A stretch of 64,000 nt of DNA from Elusimicrobiota bacterium (lineage in GTDB: Bacteria > RUG730 > JBDRED01), in assembly GCA_043820025.1 (NCBI GenBank), contig JBDRED010000034.1:10253-74252 (forward strand), given 5' to 3'. Positions 2-44,331 of this stretch are shown one piece after another; the first letter of the stretch is position 1; each line of letters opens with the position of its first letter. The notes below the pieces were generated by a model. The model saw only the letters and a program-made list of their open reading frames with translations. It was not told the DNA's origin and ran no database searches. Made by a program: the position numbers and the translations under genes.

Positions 2-3000
2 TCTACTATAACTTTTGACTGGTCTGATGTCTCTGACCTGTCAGGCGTTAACAGCTACGAGTTTATAGTTTCCACAATGAGCGATTTGTCTCTTGTATTG
101 TATACTACCAATACCGCATCATCCTATTTGTTTGCGGATAATGTTGACGATGGCAGATATTATTGGAGTGTGCGGGTTATGGATAATGTTGGTCTTTATA
201 GTTTATGGACAACAATAAGGTCAGTTTATTTTGATGCCACTCCGCCAAGCGCGCCGGTAAAGCTGACTCCTATGCAGACCAGCGTTACGGATTATATGAC
301 TACGACATTCTCGTGGACAGCGTCTCTTGATAGTTTCTCAGGATTAAGCCATTATGAGTTAAAGGTGTCAACAGAGAGCAGTTTTGAGTCAGTATATTAT
401 AGTTCTGCGACTAACAGCACATCAATAAACGTAGATTTATTTGAGCATGCGTTTTATTGGAATGTATGGGGCGTTGATAATGCGGGGAATTACAGCGTTG
501 TGTCCGATACAGGAATATTCTATATAGACGTAACCAGCCCGACAGTGCCGGTGTTAACGGCTCCTCTTACAGGATACACAACCAACAGCTTAACTTTAAC
601 ATACGACTGGGAGCCTGCATCAGATTCATCAGCAATAGATTATTATACATTTGAATTATCTACAAATTCATTTACAAATGTCTATTACAGCTCTAATGTT
701 GTATCAGGCACGGAAATACAATATGGGGTAACAGAAGGAACCTACAGCTGGCATGTAAGAAGCGTAGATAAGGCAGGCCTTATGAGCGATTATGCCGGCG
801 CTGAGACAATATTTATTGATACAACGCCGCCGAGCGCTGTTTCTCTAGAATCGCCTTATAATGGATATGTTAGCAGTCAGACTTATATAGAAATTAACTG
901 GAGCGATGCGATTGACAGCTTTACCGGAATTAAAGGCTACGAATTCCATTCATCAACAGAGCCGTCTATGTCCGGCACAGATTTTTCCACTACGACCGTT
1001 GTTAGTAATTTGACCGGAGATCCAAATGAAGGAGAGTATTATTATAGAGTAAGAGCGTTTGATAATGCCGGAAATTATGGGATATGGTCAAGCACAAGAA
1101 TGTTTATAGTGGATGTTTCGAGCCCTGCTGTGCCTGTATTAATAACGCCTTTACAAGGAAGCGTAACTAGTTATACAACATTTATATTTGATTGGAGCGA
1201 TGTAACAGATATTTCGGGAATAGAAGCATACGAGCTTAAGGCATCTACTTATAGCGATATGTCGTTACTTTATTATACTGCGACAAGCATGGCCGGGTCT
1301 TATGATGAGGTAGATAGTGATTATGCTTTTGACGATGGAAAATATTATTGGACAGTTAGAGTGATAGATAATGCGGGATGGGCTAGTGATTGGGCGCCTA
1401 TTAGAGAATTTACTATTTCAACATCAAGCCCTATAGCGCCAATAATAATAAGTCCATTGTCAGGTTATACGACAAATCAGACGGATATTACTTTGGATTG
1501 GAGTGATGTTACCAGTATATTCGGACTAGACCGCTATGAAGTGCAATTATCTACAAATAGTGATTTTTCCGGGACATCGCCTTTAACCGGTATTTTTACC
1601 TCTAAACTAGATTGTGAATTTTCAGAAAGCGTTGTTTATTGGCGTGTTAGGGCAGTTGATAATGCCGGTTTGGTCGGGGACTGGACGTCAGCGTCTGTGA
1701 TAACGGTTGATACCACCTCTCCGTCTGTCCCAATTAATCTGTCGCCTGTCAGCAGTAGTAATGTTCCTGTATCGCAGGTTACATATGATTGGGATGACGC
1801 AGTTGATAATTTATCCGGTATTAATCAGTATCAAATACAATTATCTACCAATACTTCGTTTAACCCGTTAGCGTCTAATTTCAATACAAGCACTTCGACT
1901 ATTAAGCTTGTGATGGACGGATCAGGCACATATTACTGGCATGCGCGTTCGATCGACAATGCCGGAAATTACAGCGGATGGTCAAGCACAAATACTTTAA
2001 TTGTTACAGGGCCGCCCAGCGCGCCTACAGGATTTACTCTTGCGGCATTATCTACAAGCGCGATTAAAATGATATGGAATGATTCTGCTGATAATGAAGA
2101 AGGATACAAAATTATTGACGGCTTTAGTGTTATTACAACAACAACATTAGCCGCAGGCGCAACAAATTATACGGAAACAGGTTTAACCGCAAATACGCGT
2201 TACGCAAGATACGTTCAAGCGTATAATGTGGCAGGGCCTGCATCGTCCGAAGTGTTATATGTATATACGTTTGCAAATGCTCCGAGCGGAATAAGCAACA
2301 GCGTTGTTAGAGTTCACGAGGCTGACCTGCAATGGACAGGCAATGGCGGAACAGCGTATGCAGTAAATAAGTCAACAGATGGCGGCGTGAACTGGCATTT
2401 TGTTGAGAAGATTACAACTACTACATATACTGTTAAAGGGCTTCTGCCAAGCACAACCTATGCATTCAGTATAAGCGCATACAATGGCGATAATGTGATA
2501 ACGCTTGGAAGCAGTACAATAACAGGAGTTGTTACACAGCCGTTAACGCATACAAGGATTGATCCAATCATTGGCGCTACGCAGAATCAGGCTGTAGTAG
2601 TTAACGGTAAGTCATTAAACGCTGTTGTTACACTGCCGCCCGGAGTTGTAGACAGCAGTGTATACAACGAGATATATATGGATATAAATATTGATCCTTC
2701 AGGTGCTCCTGTTTATGTTGATCCTTCGAAGATTAATGATGCTGACAGCGCTCTTAAAAAAGGCAAACAGCAGATGGGAATAATGCTGGAGCTTAATATG
2801 TATGCTATTACAGGCGAGCGCATTACGGGAAATTTTGCCAAGGCTGTAACATTAACGATCCCATATCTTGACGAAGACAATGACGGGTTTGTCGATAATA
2901 CCAATCCGCCAATTAAAGAGGAGTTTTTAGAAATATATCTATTAAATGAAACAAGCGGGGTTTGGGAAGCTCTGAGCGGAGTGGTTGATCCTGCGGCAAA

Positions 3001-3364
3001 TATAGTTACTGTGGAAATCAATCATTTCTCTGTTTATTCGCTGATAGGCCAGGCAAAATATGCGGATAATTTAAGCGGTGTTATAGCTTATCCAAATCCG
3101 TATAAGCCGGGATCAGGCACTAAGTTTGACAGACAGGGCGGCGTAATGTTTACTAACCTGACTGAACAGGTAAAGGTACGAATATTTACAATTGCCGGCA
3201 ATTTGGTATTTGAAGGAGATGAGCTCGACGGAGACGGCGACTTTGAATGGAATATTACAAATGATTATGGAGAGAGAGTTGCAAGCGGCGTATACATTTA
3301 TTTAATAACAAATCCGAATAATGGCGGAGACAAAGCGAAAGGAAAGATAGGAATAATTAAATAA
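2..3364 (+). CDS. Giant cell-surface repeat protein, 5'-truncated by the window edge (tandem Ig/FN3-like modules, two FN3 domains, T9SS/FlgD-Ig-like C-terminal sorting domain)
   Basis: The reading frame is open from base 2. The residues before the first ATG at 77 (STITFDWSDVSDLSGVNSYEF) already match the internal repeat, so the gene starts upstream of the window. Seven ~97-aa modules share the pattern TFDWSD..D.SG...YE...ST...F ... G.YYW.VR..DNAGN.S.WS ... PP(S/T)xP. Two FN3-like domains follow (PSAPTGFTL...; NAPSGISNS...). The last ~90 aa (YPNPYKPG...VRIFTIAGNLV...ASGVYIYLI...KGKIGIIK) resemble T9SS type-A sorting domains. Confidence 0.8.
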   Translation, partial: STITFDWSDVSDLSGVNSYEFIVSTMSDLSLVLYTTNTASSYLFADNVDDGRYYWSVRVMDNVGLYSLWTTIRSVYFDATPPSAPVKLTPMQTSVTDYMTTTFSWTASLDSFSGLSHYELKVSTESSFESVYYSSATNSTSINVDLFEHAFYWNVWGVDNAGNYSVVSDTGIFYIDVTSPTVPVLTAPLTGYTTNSLTLTYDWEPASDSSAIDYYTFELSTNSFTNVYYSSNVVSGTEIQYGVTEGTYSWHVRSVDKAGLMSDYAGAETIFIDTTPPSAVSLESPYNGYVSSQTYIEINWSDAIDSFTGIKGYEFHSSTEPSMSGTDFSTTTVVSNLTGDPNEGEYYYRVRAFDNAGNYGIWSSTRMFIVDVSSPAVPVLITPLQGSVTSYTTFIFDWSDVTDISGIEAYELKASTYSDMSLLYYTATSMAGSYDEVDSDYAFDDGKYYWTVRVIDNAGWASDWAPIREFTISTSSPIAPIIISPLSGYTTNQTDITLDWSDVTSIFGLDRYEVQLSTNSDFSGTSPLTGIFTSKLDCEFSESVVYWRVRAVDNAGLVGDWTSASVITVDTTSPSVPINLSPVSSSNVPVSQVTYDWDDAVDNLSGINQYQIQLSTNTSFNPLASNFNTSTSTIKLVMDGSGTYYWHARSIDNAGNYSGWSSTNTLIVTGPPSAPTGFTLAALSTSAIKMIWNDSADNEEGYKIIDGFSVITTTTLAAGATNYTETGLTANTRYARYVQAYNVAGPASSEVLYVYTFANAPSGISNSVVRVHEADLQWTGNGGTAYAVNKSTDGGVNWHFVEKITTTTYTVKGLLPSTTYAFSISAYNGDNVITLGSSTITGVVTQPLTHTRIDPIIGATQNQAVVVNGKSLNAVVTLPPGVVDSSVYNEIYMDINIDPSGAPVYVDPSKINDADSALKKGKQQMGIMLELNMYAITGERITGNFAKAVTLTIPYLDEDNDGFVDNTNPPIKEEFLEIYLLNETSGVWEALSGVVDPAANIVTVEINHFSVYSLIGQAKYADNLSGVIAYPNPYKPGSGTKFDRQGGVMFTNLTEQVKVRIFTIAGNLVFEGDELDGDGDFEWNITNDYGERVASGVYIYLITNPNNGGDKAKGKIGIIK

Positions 3365-3433
3365 GAATACAGAAGTCAGAATACAGAAGTCAGAATACAG
3401 GAGTCAGAATACAGAAGTCAGAATACAGAAGGA
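3365..3433 (+). repeat. Tandem array of 4.9 copies of the 14-mer GAATACAGAAGTCA (about 10 heptads AGAATAC/AGAAGTC), filling the intercistronic gap
   Basis: Read directly from the sequence: units at 3365, 3379, 3393 (variant GAATACAGGAGTCA) and 3407, plus a partial unit at 3421 that runs into the Shine-Dalgarno GGAG (3431-3434) of the ATG at 3441. Confidence 0.95.
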
Positions 3434-3440
3434 GATATAT

Positions 3441-4718
3441 ATGAATAAAATTATTAGTGGCATATTTTGTTTATTTGTGCTTTCAGGGTCGTGCGTTTTT
3501 GCCGCATTTAGCTCGAAGTCTGCGGGTACTGCCGGCGCGCAGTTTTTAAAATTTGGCGCAGGTTCCAGGGCTGCGGCTATGGGAAATGCGCAGACAGCGC
3601 TTACTGACGATGTTAACTCGATATATTGGAATCCTGCTGGGCTGAATGATGTTGAAGCAAAGGAAGTCTCATTTATGCACACAATATGGTTTCAGGATAT
3701 CGGGTATCAATACTTTGCTTATGCCCAGCCTCTTAAAAAAGGCGCGATCGGCTGCTCGATTCAGTATTTAAGCATGAGCGCAATAGATAAGTATGATAAT
3801 ACTGCAACAGCATTAAACGAGACATATAAGCCAAGTGATATAGCAGTAACGCTCAGCTATGCAAAGGTGGTTAAGGATATACCTGTAGGAGCCGGTATTA
3901 AATATATCCGCAGTACAATTGATGATGAAACAGCGCAGGCGCTGGCTATAGACTTGGGAGGAAAGTATAATTTAATGAATGGGCATTTGGTAGTCGGCCT
4001 GGCAATGCAGAATTTAGGAACAAAGATGAAATTTATAAGCGAAGCTGATCCTTTGCCGTTTACAATAAAAACAGGGGCGGTGTATAAGATGGCGCGCTTT
4101 GGAGGAGTCTTTAATTTTGCCTTGGATCTAAATGCGCCGGTTGACGACGCTTTGAGTATTGGCCTTGGAACTGAGTATGTTTATAGTTTTAATAAAAAGT
4201 TTACATTCAGCCCAAGGGTAGGATATAAGACCGAAGACAGCGAACTTGACGGAACAAGCGGCGTAACAGCAGGATTTGGGTTTGGGTATAATAATGCGGC
4301 GCTTGATTATGCGTGGACGCCGTATGGCGAGCTGGGAGATGCGCACAAAATTTCACTGCTCGTGAGATTTAACGCGCCAAAAAAAGTTGTTGATGAAAAA
4401 ATTATAGACCCCAAAAAACAAGAAGAAATAATGCGTACGAAGAATGAAAAATCCGAAAAAAGAAAAATGCGCATGCAGGAAAAGATGAAAAAGAGAGTGG
4501 ATGCATCTTTGAAAGCTAAGGTTAAGCCGGCTAAGGAAGCAAGTGTGATAAAAAAAGCTGTTCAGGAAGAGAAGAATTTAAATGAGAATTCGAAAGAGAA
4601 TATGGAGATTAATGAAGCTGTTACAATTGAGCAAAGTATCGGGGATACAAAAGAAACAAAGGAAATCCAAGAGAATATTGTTGAAGAAGAGAATATAGGA
4701 ATTGGTGATGGAGAATAA
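3441..4718 (+). CDS. PorV/PorQ-like (FadL-fold) outer-membrane beta-barrel with a Lys/Glu-rich C-terminal tail
   Basis: There is a signal peptide (MNKIISGIFCLFVLSGSCVFA). The N-terminal signature SAGTAGAQFLKFGAGSRAAAMGNAQTALTDDVNSIYWNPAGL is typical of PorV/PorQ-family proteins. An alternating beta-strand pattern extends to about residue 320. The last ~105 aa are K/E-rich low complexity. A strong RBS is present. Confidence 0.6.
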   Translation: MNKIISGIFCLFVLSGSCVFAAFSSKSAGTAGAQFLKFGAGSRAAAMGNAQTALTDDVNSIYWNPAGLNDVEAKEVSFMHTIWFQDIGYQYFAYAQPLKKGAIGCSIQYLSMSAIDKYDNTATALNETYKPSDIAVTLSYAKVVKDIPVGAGIKYIRSTIDDETAQALAIDLGGKYNLMNGHLVVGLAMQNLGTKMKFISEADPLPFTIKTGAVYKMARFGGVFNFALDLNAPVDDALSIGLGTEYVYSFNKKFTFSPRVGYKTEDSELDGTSGVTAGFGFGYNNAALDYAWTPYGELGDAHKISLLVRFNAPKKVVDEKIIDPKKQEEIMRTKNEKSEKRKMRMQEKMKKRVDASLKAKVKPAKEASVIKKAVQEEKNLNENSKENMEINEAVTIEQSIGDTKETKEIQENIVEEENIGIGDGE

Positions 4719-7620: not shown

Positions 7621-7651
7621 GATATAGCCTATTATTTACTTCCTATTATTC

Positions 7652-7679
7652 TTGACAAATTTGTAAGTAACAGTAATAT
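7652..7679 (+). promoter_or_regulatory. Candidate sigma70-type promoter (TTGACA-16-TAATAT)
   Basis: TTGACA lies at 7652-7657 and TAATAT at 7674-7679. This would place the heptad array (7689-7716) inside the 5' UTR of the 7747 gene. Confidence 0.4.
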
Positions 7680-7688
7680 ATAACATTT

Positions 7689-7716
7689 AGAATACAGAAT
7701 ACAGAATACAGAATAT
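7689..7716 (+). repeat. Heptamer tandem repeat (AGAATAC)x3 plus AGAATAT
   Basis: Read directly from the sequence. It is the same heptad as in the 3365-3433 array and lies 30 nt upstream of the AAGGAG/ATG of the 7747 gene. Confidence 0.95.
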
Positions 7717-7746: not shown

Positions 7747-10700
7747 ATGAGAAGTAAAGTAAGATATCATGTCGAAGGCAATGAGTTTGTGATTGAAAAT
7801 TATAACAATGCAAAGGCATTTGCCAGTTTTTTTCCGGCTATTGCCGGTATATGGGGAAAGCCTATGTGGGTGTTTTACGTTAATCGCGGGCAGTCTATTG
7901 CATGCTTTGGCACAAAGGATAAAGACGGCGCTATCGTTGAGTTTAACGCCGCTAACAAGGCATACAGGCAGACGCCATTGCAGGGATTTAGAACATTTAT
8001 TAAATGTGACGGAGCTGTGTATGAACCTTTTAAGAATCTTCCTGATAACGCGGAAAACGGAATAACAAACAGTATGTATATATCTTCCTATGACCTAAAG
8101 CTGTCTGAAAAAAATACAAAGCTTGGTTTTGAGGTTTCAGTGGAATATTTTACTATACCTAATGAAAATATTCCTGCTCTTGCCAGGGTAATGACAATAA
8201 AAAACATAGGCGGTAAGGACAGAAAGATTGAATGTATTGACGGACTGCCTATAATAATTCCTTATGGCACAAATAATTTTCTTTTAAAAAATATCAGCCG
8301 TTTAGCAGAGGGATGGTATAATGGCGTGTTCTTCTCGAGGGTAAACAAGGTTCCGGTTTATAAACTGCCTGTTGAGCCTTTGGACAGGCCTGAGGTTATA
8401 CATGTAAATGCAGGAAACTTTTATTCCGGATTCTATTATAAAAACAATGAAAAGATATCGCCCGGTTATATTATTGATCCTGATAGTTTGTTTGGCGAGG
8501 TAAGAGATTTTTCATTTCCTTCAAAATTTATTAATAACGAGAATTTTGAAATTGATCCTGACTTGACCGGTAAAAATAAAACACCGTCCGGTATGGGGTA
8601 TTTTACTGAGACAATTAAGGCGGGAGATGAGCTTGCGTATTATTCTATTGTCGGCACTGCGCAGGACGCGGCTAAGATAGATGATTTTGTGGGGAAGATG
8701 TCAAACAGGGAATACTTAAATAATAAAAGAGAAGATAATAAAGCGATAATAGAAGCTGTAAGCAATGACCTTTTAACAAAGTCGTCTTCCGGTAGATTTG
8801 ATAATTACTGTCAGCAGGATTTTATTGATAATCTTCTAAGGGGCGGATATCCGGTTACGCTCGGTAAAGGCGAGTTAAAGAAAAATTTCTATGTGTATTC
8901 GCGTATACACGGCGATATGGAGCGCGAGTATAATAATTTTATGGTGCTTCCTGAATATTTTTCGCAGGGAAACGGTAATTATAGAGATGTTAACCAGAAT
9001 AGGCGCAATGATGTTTTTATAAATCCTAATGTTGAGGATGAGTCAATCATTACATTTGTGAATCTTCTTCAGCTCGATGGATTTAATCCTCTTAAAATAA
9101 TGGGCACTAATTTTAGAATTGTAAACGTAAAGAAATTTTTATCTGCGTTTAAGAAAGAGGCTGATAAAAAATTGATTAAGGAAGTAATAAAAAATCATTT
9201 CAGCCTGGGACATTTATTTATTTTAATGGAAGAAAAGAATATTAAAACAGGCCTTGGCAATAATGATTTCTTAAATTTATTGATTGAGTGTTCTGAAAAG
9301 GTTGACCTGGCTCATCCGGGCGAATGTTACTGGTCAGATCATTGGCATTATAATATTGACCTTATTGAAAGCTTTCTTGCTGTTTATCCGGATAAGCTAA
9401 AGGATCTGCTCTTGGGAAAAAAGATTTATACATATTATGACAATAACCATATAGTTTTACCAAGAGATGAAAAGTACGTTTTATTTGACGGAGAGCCGAG
9501 GCAGTTAGACGCTGTTTTAGAGGATCCAAAGAAGCAGAAGATGATCAGCGAAAGAAAAAAAGACGCTAATGTTGTAAGGACAAAGCATGGCGCAGGCGAT
9601 ATATACAAGACAACGCTCCTTGGAAAATTATTAAACCTTACGGCGAATAAGTACGCGTCGCTGGACCCTGACTGTATAGGCGTTGAGATGGAGTCAGACA
9701 GGCCGAACTGGTGCGATGCGTTAAACGGCGTTCCGGGAACGTTTGGGTCGTCAACAGCAGAGTCATTTGAGCTGAAAAGGCTTTTAACTTTCTTGATAAA
9801 CAGCTTAAAATCTTTAAGTATTAAGCCGGATATGAAGATAACTACAGCAAAAGAAACTATAGATTTTCTTAAAAAACTTGAGACAGCTGTAATAAAGAAT
9901 AAAAATGATCAGTTTAAATTCTGGGATGAAACGCATTCAATTAAGGAAGCTTATAGAGAGAAAATAAGGTTTGGCGTTTTAGGCAGAGACGAGCAGATAT
10001 CAGCGGCGGATTTAATTAAGATGCTTGAATTATTTTTAGAAAAATTAGACAGCGGGTTGAATAAATCTGTGGATAAAGCCACAGGTATGGTTGCTACAAA
10101 CTATCAGTATGAGCTCGTGAAATATAAAGCGCTGAAAGAAAAAGGCAAAACAAAAAAGAATAGAAACGGTTATCCCTGCATTAAGGCTCTTGCATTTAAG
10201 AGAAAGCCTCTGCCATTGTTCTTAGAAGGGTCTGTTCATTATCTGCGTATAGCTGGAAGCAAGACGGCTGCTGAAAAATTTCATAAAGCGATTCTTAACA
10301 GCGGACTTTATGACAAAAAATTAAATATGATTAAGGTAAACGCGCCGCTTACAGGCGTGCCGCTGACTACAGGGCGTATTACGGTCTTTACTTCGGGCTG
10401 GCTTGAGAATGAGTCTGTGTGGACGCATATGCAGTACAAATATATGCTTGAGCTTCTCAGAAATAACGCTGCGGATGAGTTTTTCTCCATAAGCAAAACA
10501 GCGCTTGTGCCGTTTATGGATCCAAAGGTTTATGGACGAAGCATATTTGAAAATTCTTCGTTTATTGTTAGCAGCGCGCATCCTGAGGAACATATACACG
10601 GCCAGGGTTTTGTCGGCCGTTTATCAGGCGCTACAGCTGAATTTATCTCAATGTGGATATCTATAACCAGCGGCTTAAAGCCGTTTTATATGAATAACGG

Positions 10701-19028: not shown

Positions 19029-19622
19029 ATGATTCCAGTAAATAAGCTTCTAAATCTTCTAGCGCAAAATAAATCACTCAATGAAATATCTGAAATTCTT
19101 AGTTGTAAGACAAATGAAATAAAAAGTATTCTTTTAAAAATAGCAGATTCGTATCATGACCCTAAATCCGAGTCCGTATCTGACGGTAAATTAGAAAAAG
19201 ACGGGAAAGTTTTGGTTTTTAGCGACGGCGCGTCAAGAGGCAATCCCGGCCCGAGCAGTATAGCCTGCGTGATTTTAAACTCAAAAAAACAAGAAATTAC
19301 GCATGCGAATAAATATATAGGAAAGGCTACAAATAATGAAGCGGAGTATATGGCAATATTGTTAGCTCTTGATAGGCTTGATGAGATGCAAGGCGTAAAA
19401 AGCGTAGATTTTTTTACAGATTCGCAGTTGGTTGCAAGACAAATTAATGGCGAGTATAAGGTTTCAAATAATAGAATATTAGAATTCGTTCAGTTATTCA
19501 TGGATAGAATAAAAAAATACCCGGTATTTTCAATAACCCATATACCGAGAGGGGAAAATAAATACGCGGATATGCTGGCAAATATGGCTTTAGACGAACA
19601 TATAAAAAGTTTTAAGTTTTAA
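19029..19622 (+). CDS. RNase HI-family ribonuclease with a ~55-aa N-terminal extra domain
   Basis: The RNase H-fold catalytic blocks are present: VFSDGASRGNPGPSS, ATNNEAEYMAILLAL, TDSQLVARQINGEYKV, NKYADMLAN. Confidence 0.85.
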   Translation: MIPVNKLLNLLAQNKSLNEISEILSCKTNEIKSILLKIADSYHDPKSESVSDGKLEKDGKVLVFSDGASRGNPGPSSIACVILNSKKQEITHANKYIGKATNNEAEYMAILLALDRLDEMQGVKSVDFFTDSQLVARQINGEYKVSNNRILEFVQLFMDRIKKYPVFSITHIPRGENKYADMLANMALDEHIKSFKF

Positions 19623-19735
19623 GCGCTAAGTTTCAAGTTAAATAAAAAATTAGAACTTTAAAGTGTAAAATTGAGGGAAAATTGAATAACTTATTATTAC
19701 CGGATCTCAGATTAAGCTTTATTAACTAATATATT

Positions 19736-20054
19736 TGCAGGATAGATGGTCGCTGTGAAAGCAATTTCATAGAGGAAAGTCCGGACTCCGGAGAGCAGAA
19801 TGCTCACTAACAGTGAGGCCCTGATAACTCAGGGATGGAAAGTGCAACAGAAAATATACCGCCCCGGCGTTATGCCTGGGTAAGGGTGAAAAGGCGAGGT
19901 AAGAGCTCACCGTCCTTATTAGTGATAATAGGGACTTGCAAACCCCATTCGGAGCAAGATCAAATATAAGGGAGAGGTGGCTCGTCTCGTCTTACCTTGG
20001 GTTGATCGCTTAGATAAATGACTATCAAATACAAAATCCGGCTTATTTCCTGCA
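19736..20054 (+). ncRNA. rnpB: RNase P RNA (bacterial type A), compact at about 320 nt
   Basis: Universal conserved regions are present: AGAGGAAAGTCCGGAC (19771-), ACAGAAAATATACCGCC, GGTAAGGGTGAAA, GTAAGAGCTCACC and ACAAAATCCGGCTTAT. The P1 helix is TGCAGGA (19736-) paired with TCCTGCA (-20054). The ends are accurate to about 10 nt. Confidence 0.9.
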
Positions 20055-20093
20055 GAAATAAATTAATCGCTCAATAGTCTTTTGCGGAGTTTT

Positions 20094-21659: not shown

Positions 21660-21708
21660 ATTTAGAATTCAGAAGACGAAATTTGCGTTGACACAGTCTT
21701 CTATTTCC

Positions 21709-30770: not shown

Positions 30771-31676
30771 ATGAAAAAAAATATTTTAGTATTTACTTTA
30801 ATATTTTTAAGCGGCTGCGGTCTTAAAAATTATCAGAAATCCACATTTTTAGGAGCTGCTGCAGGAGCTGCTGCATCAGCTGTAATAGTTAATGATTCAA
30901 AGAGGGTGGTTGAGGGCGCAGTAATAGGCGCTATGACAGGCGCTTTGATTGGCAGGGGAATAGCGTGTTTACTATTTAATTGCGGGGATGAGATAGAAAG
31001 ATTAAAACGTGAAGCGTATGAGCGAAGGCTTGCTGAAGAGCAGAGGCTTGCTGAAGAGCAGAGGCTTGCCGAAGAGCAGAGACTTGCAGAAGAACAGAGG
31101 CTTGCAGAAGAACAGAGGCTTGCCGAAGAGCAGAGACTTGCAGAAGAACAGAGGCTTGCCGAAGAGCAGAGGCTTGCTGAAGAGCAGAGGCTTGCCGAAG
31201 AGCAGAGGCTTACTGAAGAGCAGAGGCTTACTGAAGAGCAGAGGCTTGCCGAAGAGCAGAGACTTGCTGAATTGAAAAAAAGAGAGGAAATGCAAAGGGC
31301 TGCAGAGGAAATGTTGAAAGCTGATAATGACGCAAAGCTTGTTCTTGAAGGAATAAATTTTGAGTCAGACAGCGCAATATTAAGCGAGGATTCCGAGAAA
31401 ACGCTTGATGATGTTGCCGGCGTTGTGGTAAATGATAAGACAGGAGTTATTATTGAAATCACGGCGCATACAGATAGTATAGGCTCAGAGGAATATAATC
31501 TAAATCTTTCCCAGAAAAGAGCTGATTCGGTTATGAAATATTTAATGTCAAAGGGAGTAAATCAAGATAAGCTCAAAGCTAAGGGTATGGGAGAGAGCAG
31601 TCCGTCAGTTTTAAATGACACAGAGGAAGGCCGCGCTAAAAACCGCAGAATCGAGTTTAAGGTAATAAAGAATTAA
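30771..31676 (+). CDS. OmpA-domain lipoprotein with a glycine-zipper segment and a (RLAEEQ)n coiled-coil repeat spacer
   Basis: The lipobox is LIFLSGCG and the Gly-zipper is GAAAGAAASAV...GAVIGAMTGALIGRG. About 13.8 hexapeptide repeats follow. The C-terminal OmpA-like domain reads LEGINFESDSAIL...HTDSIGSEEYNLNLSQKRA...NRRIEFKV. ATG 30771 is preceded by AAGGGAG. Confidence 0.88.
   Translation: MKKNILVFTLIFLSGCGLKNYQKSTFLGAAAGAAASAVIVNDSKRVVEGAVIGAMTGALIGRGIACLLFNCGDEIERLKREAYERRLAEEQRLAEEQRLAEEQRLAEEQRLAEEQRLAEEQRLAEEQRLAEEQRLAEEQRLAEEQRLTEEQRLTEEQRLAEEQRLAELKKREEMQRAAEEMLKADNDAKLVLEGINFESDSAILSEDSEKTLDDVAGVVVNDKTGVIIEITAHTDSIGSEEYNLNLSQKRADSVMKYLMSKGVNQDKLKAKGMGESSPSVLNDTEEGRAKNRRIEFKVIKN
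31026..31274 (+). repeat. 18-bp in-frame tandem repeat, about 13.8 copies (AGGCTTGCTGAAGAGCAG and synonymous variants)
   Basis: Read directly from the sequence. It encodes RLAEEQ x10, RLTEEQ x2, RLAEEQ x1 and a partial RLAEL. The units differ mostly at synonymous positions. Confidence 0.95.
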
Positions 31677-42905: not shown

Positions 42906-43550
42906 ATGATTGCGTTAATTGATTATGGAATGGGAAATTTAAATAGCGTGAGTAAGGCGCTTGATTTGGCTGTTTCTAATATTGGATCATCTCAAGAAAT
43001 AAAGATTACAAGCGCAAACAAGGATATTTTAAACGCAGACGCTGTTGTGCTGCCGGGCGTCGGCGCTTTTGGCCAGGCTATTGAAAATCTAAAAAATCTC
43101 AGGCTTATAAACAGTATTACAGAGGCGTATAATTCGCAAAAACCATTTCTTGGAGTCTGTTTGGGTTTACAGCTTTTATTTGAAAAAAGTTATGAGCATG
43201 GCATGCATAAAGGGCTTGGTTTAATAAAGGGCGAGGTAAGAAAATTTGAACTGCCGTCCAAGTATAAGATTCCGCATATGGGATGGAACTTAGTTAGTCC
43301 ATCAACGAAGAACGCGCTTTTTGCCGGGATACCTGCGGATTCATATTTTTATTTTGTGCACTCATATTATGTGCAGACTAATGATAAGACTATAAATAAG
43401 ATGCTTACAAAATATGGTAAAAACTTTTGTTCAGGCGTATACAATGATTTTTTATGCGCTGTTCAGTTTCACCCTGAAAAAAGCCAGTCATCAGGGATAA
43501 AGCTGTTAGAAAATTTTTGCAAGAGAATAAAGAGTAGAAGTCAAAAATAA
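42906..43550 (+). CDS. hisH: Imidazole glycerol phosphate synthase, glutamine amidotransferase subunit
   Basis: IALIDYGMGNLNSV, the nucleophile in GVCLGLQLL, and VQFHPEKS are present. Confidence 0.93.
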   Translation: MIALIDYGMGNLNSVSKALDLAVSNIGSSQEIKITSANKDILNADAVVLPGVGAFGQAIENLKNLRLINSITEAYNSQKPFLGVCLGLQLLFEKSYEHGMHKGLGLIKGEVRKFELPSKYKIPHMGWNLVSPSTKNALFAGIPADSYFYFVHSYYVQTNDKTINKMLTKYGKNFCSGVYNDFLCAVQFHPEKSQSSGIKLLENFCKRIKSRSQK

Positions 43551-43572
43551 GAATACAGAAGTCAGAAGAATT
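43551..43572 (+). repeat. Single copy of the GAATACAGAAGTCA element (plus GAAGAATT), immediately after the hisH stop
   Basis: Read directly from the sequence. The coding 3' end just upstream also contains AGAAGTCA (43536-43543). Confidence 0.85.
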
Positions 43573-43608
43573 ATAATAACCTTTGAAACTTTTTGGGAGG
43601 TAGATAAT

Positions 43609-44331
43609 ATGCAGATAATACCTGCGATTGATATTAGAGGCGGGAACTGTGTAAGGCTTATGCAAGGCAGACTTGAGCAGGAAACTATTTACTCAAAAGA
43701 TCCTGTATTTATGGCTAAGCTTTGGCGGGCTAAAGGAGCTGAGAGAATACATATCGTTGATCTCGACGGAGCCTTTGGCGGCGTGCCGGCAAATTATGAA
43801 ATAATAAAAAGTATAAGAAAGGAAGTAGATGTTGCATTAGAGGTAGGCGGAGGTATCAGGGATCATGAAACAATTGAAAAGCTTTTAAACGCAGGTATTG
43901 ATAAAGTTGTGCTTGGCACTGTAGCAATATATAATACGGATTTGGTTAAAGAGGCGATAAAAAATCATGGAGACAAAATTATTATTGGTATTGACGCAAA
44001 CAACGGCAGAGCGGCGATTGGCGGATGGAAGGAAGTTACAAATGTGACTGACCTGGACCTTGCGCATAATATGGAAAAAATCGGAGTCAGCGAATTTATT
44101 TATACAGATATCAGCAAGGATGGTATGCTCGAGGGGCCGAATCTGGGCGGGGTAAAAAAATTTGCCGAGAGTATTAAAGGAAAAATGATTGTTTCAGGCG
44201 GCATAGCTTCTGTAAAGGATATTGAAAATATTGTTAAGTTAAAGATGAATAACATTGATGGCATTATAGTAGGTAAAGCGCTGTACGCTGAAACATTAAA
44301 GCTTGAAGACGCGATAGCGGCGGTAAAATAA
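43609..44331 (+). CDS. hisA: ProFAR isomerase HisA
   Basis: IIPAIDIRGGNCVRL, HIVDLDGA, EVGGGIR and ... YTDISKDGML are typical of HisA. Confidence 0.93.
   Translation: MQIIPAIDIRGGNCVRLMQGRLEQETIYSKDPVFMAKLWRAKGAERIHIVDLDGAFGGVPANYEIIKSIRKEVDVALEVGGGIRDHETIEKLLNAGIDKVVLGTVAIYNTDLVKEAIKNHGDKIIIGIDANNGRAAIGGWKEVTNVTDLDLAHNMEKIGVSEFIYTDISKDGMLEGPNLGGVKKFAESIKGKMIVSGGIASVKDIENIVKLKMNNIDGIIVGKALYAETLKLEDAIAAVK

What the first reader, a model, noticed from the sequence alone, without database searches (positions are those of the whole stretch)
3365..3433. Intercistronic gap made entirely of a 14-nt (2 x 7) tandem repeat that fuses into the Shine-Dalgarno
From 1 nt after the TAA stop (3362-3364) up to the RBS, the sequence is GAATACAGAAGTCA x4.9, with one unit carrying A->G. 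Each unit is two related heptads (AGAATAC/AGAAGTC). The last unit becomes GAATACAGAAGGAGAT-N5-ATG. The array has no dyad symmetry, so it is not a terminator, and no spacers, so it is not CRISPR. It is purine-rich and predicted to be unstructured. The same heptads recur at other gene junctions in the same orientation as transcription (see the next two findings). That pattern argues for an RNA-level role, such as a protein-binding platform, a ribosome standby or enhancer site, or a processing signal. A copy-number-variable contingency tract tuning expression of the barrel gene is an alternative.
Basis: seen in the sequence. Interest (0 to 1): 0.6.

Follow-up and report, generated by a model that had tools for sequence, protein, structure and literature searches.

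The report
Stop-anchored heptad repeat between two genes
The 68-base tract is real, but it is one of about 45 same-sense AGAA(T/G)NC seven-base repeat arrays that start right after stop codons across this small uncultured genome, and its repeat unit also forms the arms of "intervening sequence" cassettes, so it is a new member of the poorly understood bacterial heptamer-repeat class and not a control device specific to this gene pair.

Summary
Window 3364-3431 holds AGAATACAGAAGTC x4.9 (96% match, one A>G at 3401). It runs from the last A of the TAA stop of a giant T9SS-sorted surface protein into the AAGGAG Shine-Dalgarno of a PorV/PorQ-family barrel gene, and it is predicted to be unstructured.

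It is not locus-specific. The 1.44-Mb Elusimicrobiota-like genome holds about 45 AGAA[T/G]NC arrays, its dominant period-7 repeat. They are nearly all intergenic and on the sense strand (AGAATAC 46:2). 21 of 24 start within -2..+9 nt of the upstream stop codon (4.1 expected), while the distance to the next start codon ranges from 14 to 267 nt. The fusion with the SD here therefore follows from a short gap.

Flanking genes are housekeeping. About half the arrays run in register into AGAAGAATTATAAT, a -10-like box. The same heptads form the inverted arms around the genome's single S23p/"23S rRNA IVS protein" gene. They also form the arms of such cassettes in other phyla, including a true 23S helix-45 IVS and the published Coxiella IVS.

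Best reading (0.45): a slippage-prone, one-armed copy of this IVS-arm heptad repeat, co-transcribed as an unstructured purine-rich spacer. A dedicated RNA or protein platform is not excluded. Read data were unavailable and no close relatives exist.

The parts
2..3364 (+). 3' part of a giant ORF that runs off the contig start (at least 4,500 codons on contig C34). It has fn3/Ig-like repeats and ends in a T9SS type A sorting domain. Stop TAA at 3362-3364.
   Evidence: ORF list, crude genome ORF call C34:3-13616, Pfam fn3/CHU_C/FlgD_ig, NCBIfam TIGR04183 at 23.5 bits against a cut-off of 23, and a PorZ-like C-terminal match at 1e-19.
3364..3431 (+). The finding: (AGAATAC AGAAGTC) x4.9 tandem array, overlapping the stop codon by 1 nt and running into the SD.
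   Evidence: It is the second-highest scoring member of the genome's AGAANNC family and is unstructured as RNA.
3399..3405 (+). Variant heptad AGGAGTC (A>G at 3401), the only mismatch in the array. It creates an SD-like AGGAG.
   Evidence: The same AGGAGTC variant recurs in other arrays in G000 (C30:21249, C43:11252) and in metagenome cassette arms (L125).
3429..3434 (+). Shine-Dalgarno AAGGAG, formed by the truncated last heptad, 6 nt before the ATG.
   Evidence: AAGGAG-type words are among the most enriched sense-strand 7-mers in co-oriented gaps.
3441..4718 (+). PorV/PorQ-family outer-membrane barrel gene (425 aa, signal peptide, Lys/Glu-rich C-terminal tail).
   Evidence: Translation, Pfam PorV/UPF0164, NCBIfam NF033709 at 200 bits. 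The closest homologue anywhere is only about 50% identical.
7689..7715 (+). Family member: AGAATAC x3.9, then AGAATATACT. It lies 68 nt after the stop of the M23/LysM peptidase gene and 37 nt before the ATG at 7747. A TTGACA-N17-AATATA promoter-like site (7634-7662) lies upstream of it, so here the array would sit in the 5' UTR.
21664..21677 (+). Family member: AGAATTC AGAAGAC, 4 nt after a TAA stop. A canonical TTGACC-N17-TATAAT lies about 40 nt further on, ahead of an MgtE-like gene.
   Evidence: C34:31916-31929.
43536..43577 (+). Family member: AGAAGTC, then a 7-nt interruption, then AGAATAC AGAAGTC starting on the last A of the hisH-side stop (TAA 43548-43550). It runs in 7-nt register into AGAAGAA|TTATAAT (-10-like box at 43572-43577), then AACCTTTGAAACTTT, an SD, and the hisA ATG at 43609.

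Best explanation
The tract is a one-armed (solo) member of a lineage-specific heptanucleotide simple-sequence-repeat family with consensus AGAA[T/G][A/T/C]C, usually alternating G-type and T-type heptads to give a 14-nt unit. The same repeat forms the sense-strand 5' arm of S23p/'23S rRNA intervening-sequence protein' hairpin cassettes.

Shown:
- The family is dispersed, with about 45 arrays.
- It is intergenic and on the sense strand.
- It is anchored to the stop codon of the upstream ORF.
- It is free of stop and start codons and is unstructured.
- Each locus carries its own homogenised heptad variants.
- The family is absent from the other genomes of the phylum.

Inferred:
- Arrays are seeded by, or together with, IVS-type cassettes. 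They grow and shrink by replication slippage in 7- or 14-nt steps.
- They persist only where harmless. That means directly behind a stop codon, ahead of the regulatory signals of the next gene. It also means the purine-rich orientation, which cannot pair with SD sequences or form dsRNA.
- At this locus the original gap was short, so the expanded array fills the whole 76-nt intercistronic spacer.
- The array is co-transcribed with the giant T9SS-cargo gene and the PorV-like gene. At most it acts as an unstructured, weakly SD-like spacer that keeps the true SD open and separates termination from re-initiation.
- Its unit number is probably polymorphic and may passively tune barrel expression.
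For: - Abundance: 45 arrays against 2-14 in shuffles. 32 of 45 lie in the roughly 7% of the genome outside long ORFs.
- Unbiased TRF shows the family is the dominant period-7/14 repeat.
- Logo: A92 G94 A94 A97 [T49/G41][A46/T38/C14] C87.
- Sense bias: AGAATAC 46:2 and TACAGAA 58:4 in co-oriented gaps. Two arrays 1.5 kb apart on opposite strands each follow their own gene (C14:27181 and C14:28704), so orientation follows transcription and not replication.
- Stop anchoring: 21/24 against 4.1 expected, 0 of 20,000 simulations. In diverse metagenome contigs the count is 25 sense-anchored against 8 antisense.
- Neighbouring genes are housekeeping: dxr, gltX, aroC, ilvC, leuB, asd, eno, hisA, ribH.
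- Not conserved at four paralogous cargo+PorV junctions or in the phylum.
- The single PF05635/TIGR02436 gene of the genome (C27:10095-10463) is flanked by inverted arrays of the same heptads, which pair.
- Cassettes with the same polarity occur in other phyla, including a 23S helix-45 IVS. Their S23p proteins are 54-60% identical in contigs of 54-59% GC and carry AGAATAC/AGAAGTC arms.
- The Coxiella IVS has AGAAGA plus 2-3 GACAGAT heptamers, with strain-to-strain differences in copy number (PMC4990558).
- Heptamers are the over-represented long-SSR class in bacteria, and this has been attributed to polymerase slippage (Mrazek 2007, as cited in PMC4679880 and PMC4692102).
- Near-perfect identity (1 mismatch in 68 nt) and locus-specific variants fit recent local expansion.
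Against: - Stop anchoring this tight (within 9 nt even in 200-290-nt gaps) and 92-97% invariance of AGAA..C across loci are more than a purely neutral SSR model predicts. Both could reflect a sequence-specific partner.
- No remnants of S23p genes lie beside the solo arrays, so they are not recently decayed full cassettes.
- Solo antisense arms are almost absent, which this model can only explain by selection.
- 11 of 24 arrays abut a -10-like box (14% at control positions), which hints at a promoter-level role for part of the family.
- No near relative exists: the best homologue of the barrel protein is 50% identical.
Confidence: 0.45

Rival explanations
1. Dedicated RNA-level cis-element. The arrays are multivalent single-stranded binding platforms acting just after translation termination. 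They could capture or hand on post-termination ribosomes through weak anti-SD pairing (AGAAG, AGGAG). Alternatively they could bind an RNA-binding protein that protects or marks the junction. One candidate is the S23p/Avd-like pentamer encoded by the only cassette carrying the same repeats.
For: - Strict sense orientation and stop-codon anchoring.
- Unstructured RNA.
- Invariant AGAA..C with two free positions, as in a recognition motif.
- Heptads are one mutation from the SD core, and AGGAGTC variants occur.
- S23p and the arrays co-occur in G000, and both are missing from the six relatives.
- S23p is homologous to the pentameric XCC0516 (PDB 2gsc).
- Analogous proposals exist for TAACTGA repeats (PMC4679880) and Nostoc heptamers (bioRxiv 10.1101/2022.06.06.494920).
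Against: - Copy number ranges from 2 to 14 with no pattern, and downstream genes share no function.
- About half the arrays are separated from the next gene by a -10-like box, hairpins or REP-like repeats, so coupling cannot be the general role.
- Arrays also occur in divergent gaps that have no stop codon.
- There is no conservation in relatives and no binding data.
- The co-occurrence rests on 7 genomes.
Confidence: 0.2
2. DNA-level promoter element. The heptads replace the -35/upstream region of sigma-70-type promoters, as binding sites for an activator or nucleoid protein, in the manner of the TTTTGAT heptads of the ctxAB promoter or pho boxes.
For: - 11/24 arrays are followed within 12 nt by a -10-like hexamer, against 14% at control positions.
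- The exact 14-mer AGAAGAATTATAAT occurs 10 times, in 7-nt register with the array.
- Downstream follow AAC(C/T)TTTGAAAC, a 25-45-nt leader, an SD and an ATG.
- The same TATAATAAC...TTTGAAAC consensus occurs at heptad-free promoter-like sites.
- In C26:13301 the array abuts TTGACG-N17-TAAAAT.
Against: - The focal array has no -10 box before the SD. The same is true of the S23p cassette arm and of C30:28564.
- The -35 slot reads CAGAAT/CAGAAG, although canonical TTGACA promoters exist in this genome.
- A 7-bp period places successive sites on different helix faces.
- One array-plus-TATAAT sits in a convergent gap (C5:66663), and one is followed at once by an intrinsic terminator (C46:27197).
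- Stop anchoring is not expected for a promoter element in long gaps.
Confidence: 0.13
3. Contingency (phase-variable) tract. Slippage in the unit number specifically tunes expression of the PorV-like barrel, in the manner of the (ATCTTTC)n tract of H. influenzae hmw1A.
For: A near-perfect SSR lies immediately upstream of an outer-membrane gene and downstream of a giant surface protein. Heptamer copy number varies among Coxiella strains. The hmw precedent shows heptamer number controlling expression through the 5' UTR (PMC12721329).
Against: The same arrays flank core metabolic and translation genes. There is no hairpin partner like the one in hmw. Changes in 14-nt steps in an unstructured spacer leave the SD-ATG geometry untouched. 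Four paralogous junctions lack any tract. Population data were unobtainable.
Confidence: 0.08
4. Trans-pairing target. Sense arrays base-pair with antisense heptad RNA, such as the 3' arm released from the S23p cassette, to give dsRNA for processing or silencing.
For: The predicted duplex of the focal array with the cassette's 3' arm is -34.8 kcal/mol, against -14.6 +/- 4.0 for shuffled arms and -40.2 for the cognate arms. IVS stems are RNase III substrates (PMC4990558).
Against: No RNase III gene was detected in this 81%-complete genome, although 5 of 7 phylum members have one. Only one or two antisense arrays exist. There are no expression data.
Confidence: 0.04

Closest known systems
Heptanucleotide long simple-sequence repeats of bacteria (LSSR, Mrazek 2007), including cyanobacterial STRR heptamers (Calothrix/Nostoc), GGGAATC of Xanthomonas and GGGGA(T/C)T of Nostoc (PMC4692102)
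   Same: Tandem 7-nt units. Many dispersed intergenic loci per genome. Lineage-specific and length-variable. Flanking genes have no common function. Function unknown, with polymerase slippage invoked.
   Different: Different consensus (AGAA[T/G]NC, purine-rich, no G-quadruplex potential). A 14-nt two-heptad super-unit. Near-absolute sense orientation and anchoring at the upstream stop codon, neither of which is described for those families. A new phylum.
TAACTGA direct repeats of marine Beggiatoaceae, some Cyanobacteria and Bacteroidetes (MacGregor 2015, PMC4679880)
   Same: Heptamer arrays of 2 to many copies. 'Forward' orientation relative to the downstream gene. Spread over housekeeping genes. 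Patchy phylogenetic distribution. Post-transcriptional role proposed but untested.
   Different: TAACTGA arrays sit within a few nucleotides of start codons and replace canonical SDs. Here the arrays sit at stop codons, 14-267 nt from the next start, and strong SDs are present.
Terminal repeats of 23S rRNA intervening sequences / S23p (PF05635, TIGR02436) cassettes, e.g. the Coxiella burnetii IVS (PMC4990558)
   Same: Same heptad type in the sense-strand 5' arm just upstream of the S23p start: Coxiella has AGAAGA+(GACAGAT)n, G000 cassette has AGAAGAC AGAATTC, and metagenome 23S IVS L161 has AGAAGTC. Copy number varies. The array runs straight into an SD-like sequence.
   Different: The focal array has no complementary 3' arm, encloses no ORF and is not in rRNA. 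RNase III processing is therefore not expected, and no RNase III gene was found in this draft genome.
Phase-variable heptamer tract (ATCTTTC)n in the hmw1A/hmw2A 5' UTR of Haemophilus influenzae (PMC12721329)
   Same: A transcribed heptamer SSR upstream of a cell-surface gene. Slippage-prone.
   Different: The hmw tract is pyrimidine-rich, pairs with a G-rich arm into an RNase III-cleaved hairpin, and is confined to adhesin genes. This array is unpaired and belongs to a genome-wide family on housekeeping operons.
TTTTGAT heptad repeats of the Vibrio cholerae ctxAB promoter (bioRxiv 10.1101/2021.05.14.444153, abstract)
   Same: Tandem heptads directly upstream of a promoter core. This matches the roughly half of the family that abuts a TATAAT box.
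   Different: The ctx repeats are a single locus, AT-rich, and are bound by known regulators. The focal array has no promoter core behind it.

Membership tests
Bacterial heptanucleotide SSR / LSSR (STRR-type) family | Head-to-tail copies of a 7-nt unit, longer than chance predicts | tested here: met
   TRF period 7 (9.7 copies) and period 14 (4.9 copies, 96% match). 45 arrays against 2-14 in shuffled genomes.
Bacterial heptanucleotide SSR / LSSR (STRR-type) family | The same unit at many dispersed, mostly intergenic loci of one genome | tested here: met
   32 periodicity-detected arrays with 142 heptads. 32 of 45 regex arrays lie outside long ORFs.
Bacterial heptanucleotide SSR / LSSR (STRR-type) family | Sporadic, lineage-specific distribution | tested here: met
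   44 matching 3-heptad windows in G000. None in the six other genomes of the phylum. 0-2 in 24 further genomes.
Bacterial heptanucleotide SSR / LSSR (STRR-type) family | Unit-number polymorphism between strains or within populations | not testable with these tools
No genome or protein closer than about 50% identity.
IVS / S23p (PF05635) hairpin cassette | Two complementary inverted arms forming a long stem | tested here: not met
   The focal region is unstructured and has no inverted partner within 1.5 kb. Met only at C27:10046-10482.
IVS / S23p (PF05635) hairpin cassette | An S23p/four-helix-bundle ORF, or its remnant, between the arms | tested here: not met
   One PF05635 gene in the genome, at C27. 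tblastn finds no remnants near other arrays.
IVS / S23p (PF05635) hairpin cassette | 5' arm built of AGAnnnC-type heptads on the sense strand | tested here: met
   G000 cassette, metagenome cassettes L097, L125, L139 and 23S IVS L161, Coxiella. The focal array uses the same heptads.
IVS / S23p (PF05635) hairpin cassette | Excision or processing by RNase III | not testable with these tools
   No RNA data. RNase III models found nothing in G000, which is 81% complete.
Phase-variable contingency SSR | Restricted to surface, virulence or restriction-modification 'contingency' genes | tested here: not met
   Downstream genes include dxr, gltX, aroC, ilvC, leuB, asd, eno, hisA and ribH.
TAACTGA-type start-proximal heptamer repeats | Array within a few nt of the start codon, in place of an SD | tested here: not met
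   Array-to-start distance is 14-267 nt. Arrays are anchored at the stop codon instead, and SDs are present.
Sigma-70 promoter upstream/activator repeats | Fixed position just upstream of a -10/-35 core | tested here: inconclusive
   Met for 11/24 arrays. Not met at the focal locus, which has no -10 before the SD. No TSS data.
CRISPR array | Repeats separated by unique spacers of similar length | tested here: not met
   The units are contiguous.
Intrinsic terminator | GC-rich hairpin followed by a U-tract | tested here: not met
   No hairpin and no T-run.
Rho utilisation (rut) site | Unstructured, C-rich and G-poor RNA (C>G) | tested here: not met
   The unit has 2 C against 3 G in 14 nt. It is unstructured and a rho gene is present, but the composition is wrong.
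Known RNA families (Rfam 15) | A match to a curated covariance model | tested here: not met
   No hit on the array in the window (gathering threshold) or on 20 array loci at E<=1.

The most novel reading that the evidence does not exclude
The AGAA..C heptads are the cognate nucleic-acid sites of S23p/Avd-like four-helix-bundle pentamers. S23p cassettes and their solo, stop-anchored arrays would then form one protein-plus-repeat system that acts on transcripts just after translation termination. This would give a function to the orphan S23p/IVS proteins. It would also explain why heptamers are the over-represented long SSR class in bacteria.
Probability: 0.12. Interest if true: 0.75.

Novelty: new member of a known kind. 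Interest (0 to 1): 0.4.

Why it matters
Tandem heptamer repeats have been known for decades as the most over-represented long simple repeats in bacterial genomes, yet their origin and function remain unknown. This small genome offers an unusually clean case:
- one dominant heptad family;
- almost only one-armed, sense-strand copies;
- a sharp positional rule (they start at the upstream stop codon);
- a single S23p/IVS cassette bearing the same repeats.

Together these features tie three separately described things to each other: genome-wide heptamer SSRs, the arms of rRNA intervening sequences, and the orphan S23p proteins. They also suggest simple binding and reporter tests. For annotation, the practical message is that such tracts should not be read as locus-specific regulators of the neighbouring gene.

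Tried and rejected
- CRISPR, intrinsic terminator and attenuator: no spacers, no dyad, fold no better than shuffles.
- Known RNA family: none.
- rut site: C<G.
- Coding on the minus strand: ORF 3404..3682 (92 aa, GTG start) lies inside the array and the barrel gene, and I take it as spurious.
- Element conserved at 'T9SS cargo + PorV-like' junctions: four paralogous junctions have short gaps without heptads, and only C13:9239 has two heptads.
- Orthologous junction in relatives: none exists. The best homologue is 50% identical, and phylum members have PorV-like genes but no arrays.
- Decayed S23p cassettes: no pseudogene traces beside solo arrays.
- Regulon of related functions: none.
- Orientation explained by replication strand: contradicted by C14, where two arrays 1.5 kb apart lie on opposite strands, each sense to its own gene.
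- tRNA-linked or promoter consensus from tRNA upstream regions: not informative beyond showing that TTGACA-type promoters exist.

Full report
**1. The observation**

The tract exists as described. Window 3364-3431 is AGAATACAGAAGTC x4.9, with 96% matches and TRF score 129. It starts on the last A of the TAA stop (3362-3364). It carries one A>G change at 3401, which gives AGGAGTC. It ends as AGAATACAGAAGGAGAT, whose AAGGAG (3429-3434) is the Shine-Dalgarno for the ATG at 3441. Four bases, not five, lie between GGAGAT and ATG.

The array is 71% purine and has no dyad symmetry. As RNA, 3345-3470 folds at -5.2 kcal/mol against -8.15 +/- 2.5 for shuffles (z = +1.18), and the centroid is empty. A 551-nt context folds no better than shuffles.

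The upstream ORF is the end of a giant protein that runs off the contig. It carries fn3/Ig repeats and ends in a T9SS type A sorting domain. The downstream gene is a PorV/PorQ-family barrel (NF033709, 200 bits).

**2. It is one member of a genome-wide family**

The window lies on contig C34 of a 1.44-Mb, 37% GC draft genome of 49 contigs. Its GTDB phylum holds only seven species genomes here. The best named hits of the barrel protein are Elusimicrobia MAGs at 42% identity.

- The pattern ([AG]GAANNC)x>=2 finds 45 arrays against 2-14 in shuffled genomes.
- 32 arrays lie outside long ORFs, although crude ORFs cover 93% of the genome.
- TRF, which knows nothing about the motif, shows this family is the dominant period-7/14 repeat. 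The focal array is its second-best member, after a 7.6 x 14-nt array in front of gltX.
- The heptad logo is A92 G94 A94 A97 [T49/G41] [A46/T38/C14] C87.
- Many arrays alternate a G-type and a T-type heptad. Each locus uses its own pair: AGAAGCC/GGAATAC at C9, AGAAGAC/AGAATTC at C27, AGAAGTC/AGAATAC here. This is the signature of local expansion.

**3. Orientation**

In co-oriented intergenic gaps, AGAATAC occurs 46 times on the sense strand and twice on the antisense strand. TACAGAA occurs 58 times against 4. These words rank with the SD, TATAATA and TTGACAA among the most enriched sense-strand 7-mers. Two arrays 1.5 kb apart on contig C14 lie on opposite strands, each sense to its own gene. 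Orientation therefore follows transcription, not replication.

**4. The arrays are anchored to the stop codon, not to the RBS**

Of 24 arrays in co-oriented gaps, 21 begin within -2 to +9 nt of the upstream stop codon. Uniform placement in the gap predicts 4.1, and none of 20,000 simulations reached 21. The distance from array to the next start codon ranges from 14 to 267 nt.

The focal gap is only 76 nt long, so the array touches both ends. The 'fusion with the SD' is a local accident.

In 132 arrays from diverse metagenome contigs, 25 are sense-anchored behind a long ORF and 8 are antisense-anchored. The rule is therefore not peculiar to this genome.

**5. What follows the arrays**

- Eleven of 24 arrays are followed within 12 nt by a -10-like hexamer, against 14% at control positions.
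- The exact 14-mer AGAAGAATTATAAT occurs ten times in the genome, in 7-nt register with the array.
- At loci such as hisA (window 43564-43608), ilvC and nusB, the box is followed by AAC(C/T)TTTGAAAC, a 25-45-nt leader, an SD and an ATG.
- The same TATAATAAC..TTTGAAAC consensus occurs without heptads. These look like real promoters whose -35 slot is filled by heptads, although TTGACA-type promoters also exist.
- Other arrays run straight into an SD (focal, C30:28564, C27:10046).
- Others are followed by REP-like hairpins.
- One sits in a convergent gap and one lies in front of an intrinsic terminator.

No single downstream function fits all of them. Downstream genes are housekeeping: dxr, gltX, aroC, ilvC, leuB, asd, eno, hisA, ribH.

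**6. Link to intervening-sequence cassettes**

Earlier notes of this scan on other genomes pointed to hairpins with heptad arms around S23p genes, so I tested this here.

- The genome has exactly one PF05635/TIGR02436 gene (C27:10095-10463). It is homologous to the pentameric XCC0516 (PDB 2gsc).
- This gene sits in the gap between a MoxR-type ATPase gene and the gene that follows it. My reading of these two genes is from their sequences and was not tool-tested.
- Its left flank, 3 nt after the stop, reads AGAAGAC AGAATTC AGAAGAC AGAATTC and runs into the gene's SD.
- Its right flank holds the reverse complement of such heptads.
- The arms pair in the predicted fold (z = -3.1).

- 31 of 132 arrays have an inverted partner.
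- Six contigs encode an S23p homologue. In five of them it lies directly beside the array.
- Where both arms are on the contig (L125, L139, L161, L137), purine-rich heptads lie upstream of the ORF and the complement lies downstream, the same polarity as in G000.
- L161 is a genuine 23S rRNA helix-45 IVS with AGAAGTC arms.
- L125 and L139 encode S23p proteins 54-60% identical to this one. They carry AGAATAC/AGAAGTC-type arms in 54-59% GC DNA. L125 sits between a kinase gene and a response-regulator gene.

The published Coxiella IVS has AGAAGA followed by two or three GACAGAT heptamers before the S23p start. Copy number differs between strains, and RNase III cleaves at the first repeat (PMC4990558).

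In G000, 22 of 24 arrays of three or more heptads are one-armed. No S23p gene remnants lie beside them.

**7. Relatives**

None of the six other genomes of the phylum has such arrays, and none has a full S23p gene. No protein closer than about 50% identity to the barrel exists in the large collections, so no orthologous junction can be compared. Within the genome, four paralogous 'T9SS cargo + PorV-like' junctions have short gaps without heptads.

**8. Interpretation**

The known class that fits is the bacterial heptanucleotide long SSR. It includes the STRR sequences of cyanobacteria, GGGAATC of Xanthomonas and TAACTGA of Beggiatoaceae. These families are lineage-specific, intergenic, length-variable and of unknown function, and slippage is the proposed engine (PMC4679880, PMC4692102).

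This family adds three things:
- a new consensus in a new phylum;
- strict sense orientation with stop-codon anchoring;
- identity with the arm repeat of S23p/IVS cassettes.

My best reading (0.45) is that the focal tract is a recently expanded solo copy of this repeat. It is tolerated because, in this position and orientation, it is an unstructured, stop-free and start-free purine-rich spacer in the cargo-barrel transcript. It is not a regulator evolved for the barrel gene.

What is shown is the anatomy and the statistics. Slippage, co-transcription and selective filtering of orientation are inferred.

The tight anchoring and the invariant AGAA..C leave room for a sequence-specific partner (rival, 0.2). 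The -10 association leaves room for a promoter role at other loci (0.13). A contingency tract (0.08) and trans-pairing with antisense arms (0.04) are weaker. For the latter, the duplex with the cassette arm is -34.8 kcal/mol against -14.6 for shuffled arms. However, no RNase III gene was found in this 81%-complete draft.

**9. Limits**

- Gene calls are my own crude longest-ORF calls.
- The shuffles preserve mononucleotide composition only.
- The metagenome set was retrieved by the motif itself, so it is biased towards it.

Noticed in passing
G000 C27:10046-10482 (L177:1647-2083; L188): The genome's only S23p / four-helix-bundle (PF05635, TIGR02436) gene sits as a hairpin cassette in the gap after a MoxR-type ATPase gene. 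It is flanked by inverted AGAANNC heptad arms that pair in the predicted fold (z = -3.1).
   Followed up: yes
L161 (metagenome contig Ga0307413_10164885), about 850-1500: A classical 23S rRNA helix-45 intervening sequence whose stem arms are AGAAGTC heptads around an S23p ORF. It shows that the same heptad family builds true rRNA IVS elements in a 59% GC organism.
   Followed up: partly
G000 C14:28739, C25:8700, C30:9000, C9:55169(-), C46:27197, C13:9238(-) (L168-L173): A conserved module of about 55 nt directly after heptad arrays: AGAAGAATTATAATAGGAAATGAATATGCGGACAGGGTTACAAACCCAGTCCGGC. It consists of a -10-like box plus a 10-bp hairpin with variable stem bases. At C46 the hairpin is replaced by a canonical terminator. 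No Rfam match. It could be a small RNA, a leader or a dispersed repeat.
   Followed up: partly
G000 genome-wide, e.g. C28:77691-77836(-), C14:27072-27180(-), C16:41600-41686(-): A second abundant intergenic repeat built around GGGGACTGTCCCC (GACCGGACTCGGGGACTGTCCCCTCTGAAAAG), sometimes in 2-3 tandem copies. Its words are the most enriched sense-strand 7-mers in co-oriented gaps.
   Followed up: no
G000 C28:58727-58915(-), C18:4846-4956(-), C27:8815-8926: REP-like palindromic elements follow several arrays and fill long gaps. Examples are TGTCATTGCGAGGGA...GGCAATCTTCGAG and GATCCTTCGGATAGTAATCCTCAGGATGACA. They may correspond to the BoxC/REP-like repeats noted for this genome by an earlier report.
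   Followed up: no
G000 whole genome; phylum genomes G001-G006: No RNase III gene (TIGR02191, PF14622) was detected in this 81%-complete draft, although 5 of the 7 phylum genomes, including all three high-quality ones, have one. This may be incompleteness, or a real loss that would be relevant to a genome full of heptad arms.
   Followed up: partly
G000: C19:18888-19832, C2:6916-8334, C29:34235-35179, C11:43402-44616, C16:36363-37637, C48:819-1784, C13:8266-9165, C11:26047-27045: A large paralogous family of PorV/PorQ-like barrels (18 matching places in 1.44 Mb). At least five of them (C19, C2, C29, C13, C11:26047) directly follow a gene ending in a T9SS-type C-terminal sorting domain (...GVYIY...K.KI.V I/K*). 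This suggests dedicated cargo-shuttle pairs.
   Followed up: partly
window 31026-31271: An 18-nt tandem repeat, AGGCTTGCTGAAGAGCAG x13.7 (90% match, TRF score 380). Its period is a multiple of three, so it is probably a coding repeat.
   Followed up: no
window 19607-19639, upstream of the RNase P RNA gene (19734-20060): A different, weak heptad run (AAGTTTT x4.7) lies about 95 nt upstream of the RNase P RNA gene.
   Followed up: no
G000 C21:9555-9654: A 21-nt tandem repeat, GGGAATATATCCGCCGCCGCC x4.8 (97% match, score 179), unrelated to the heptad family.
   Followed up: no
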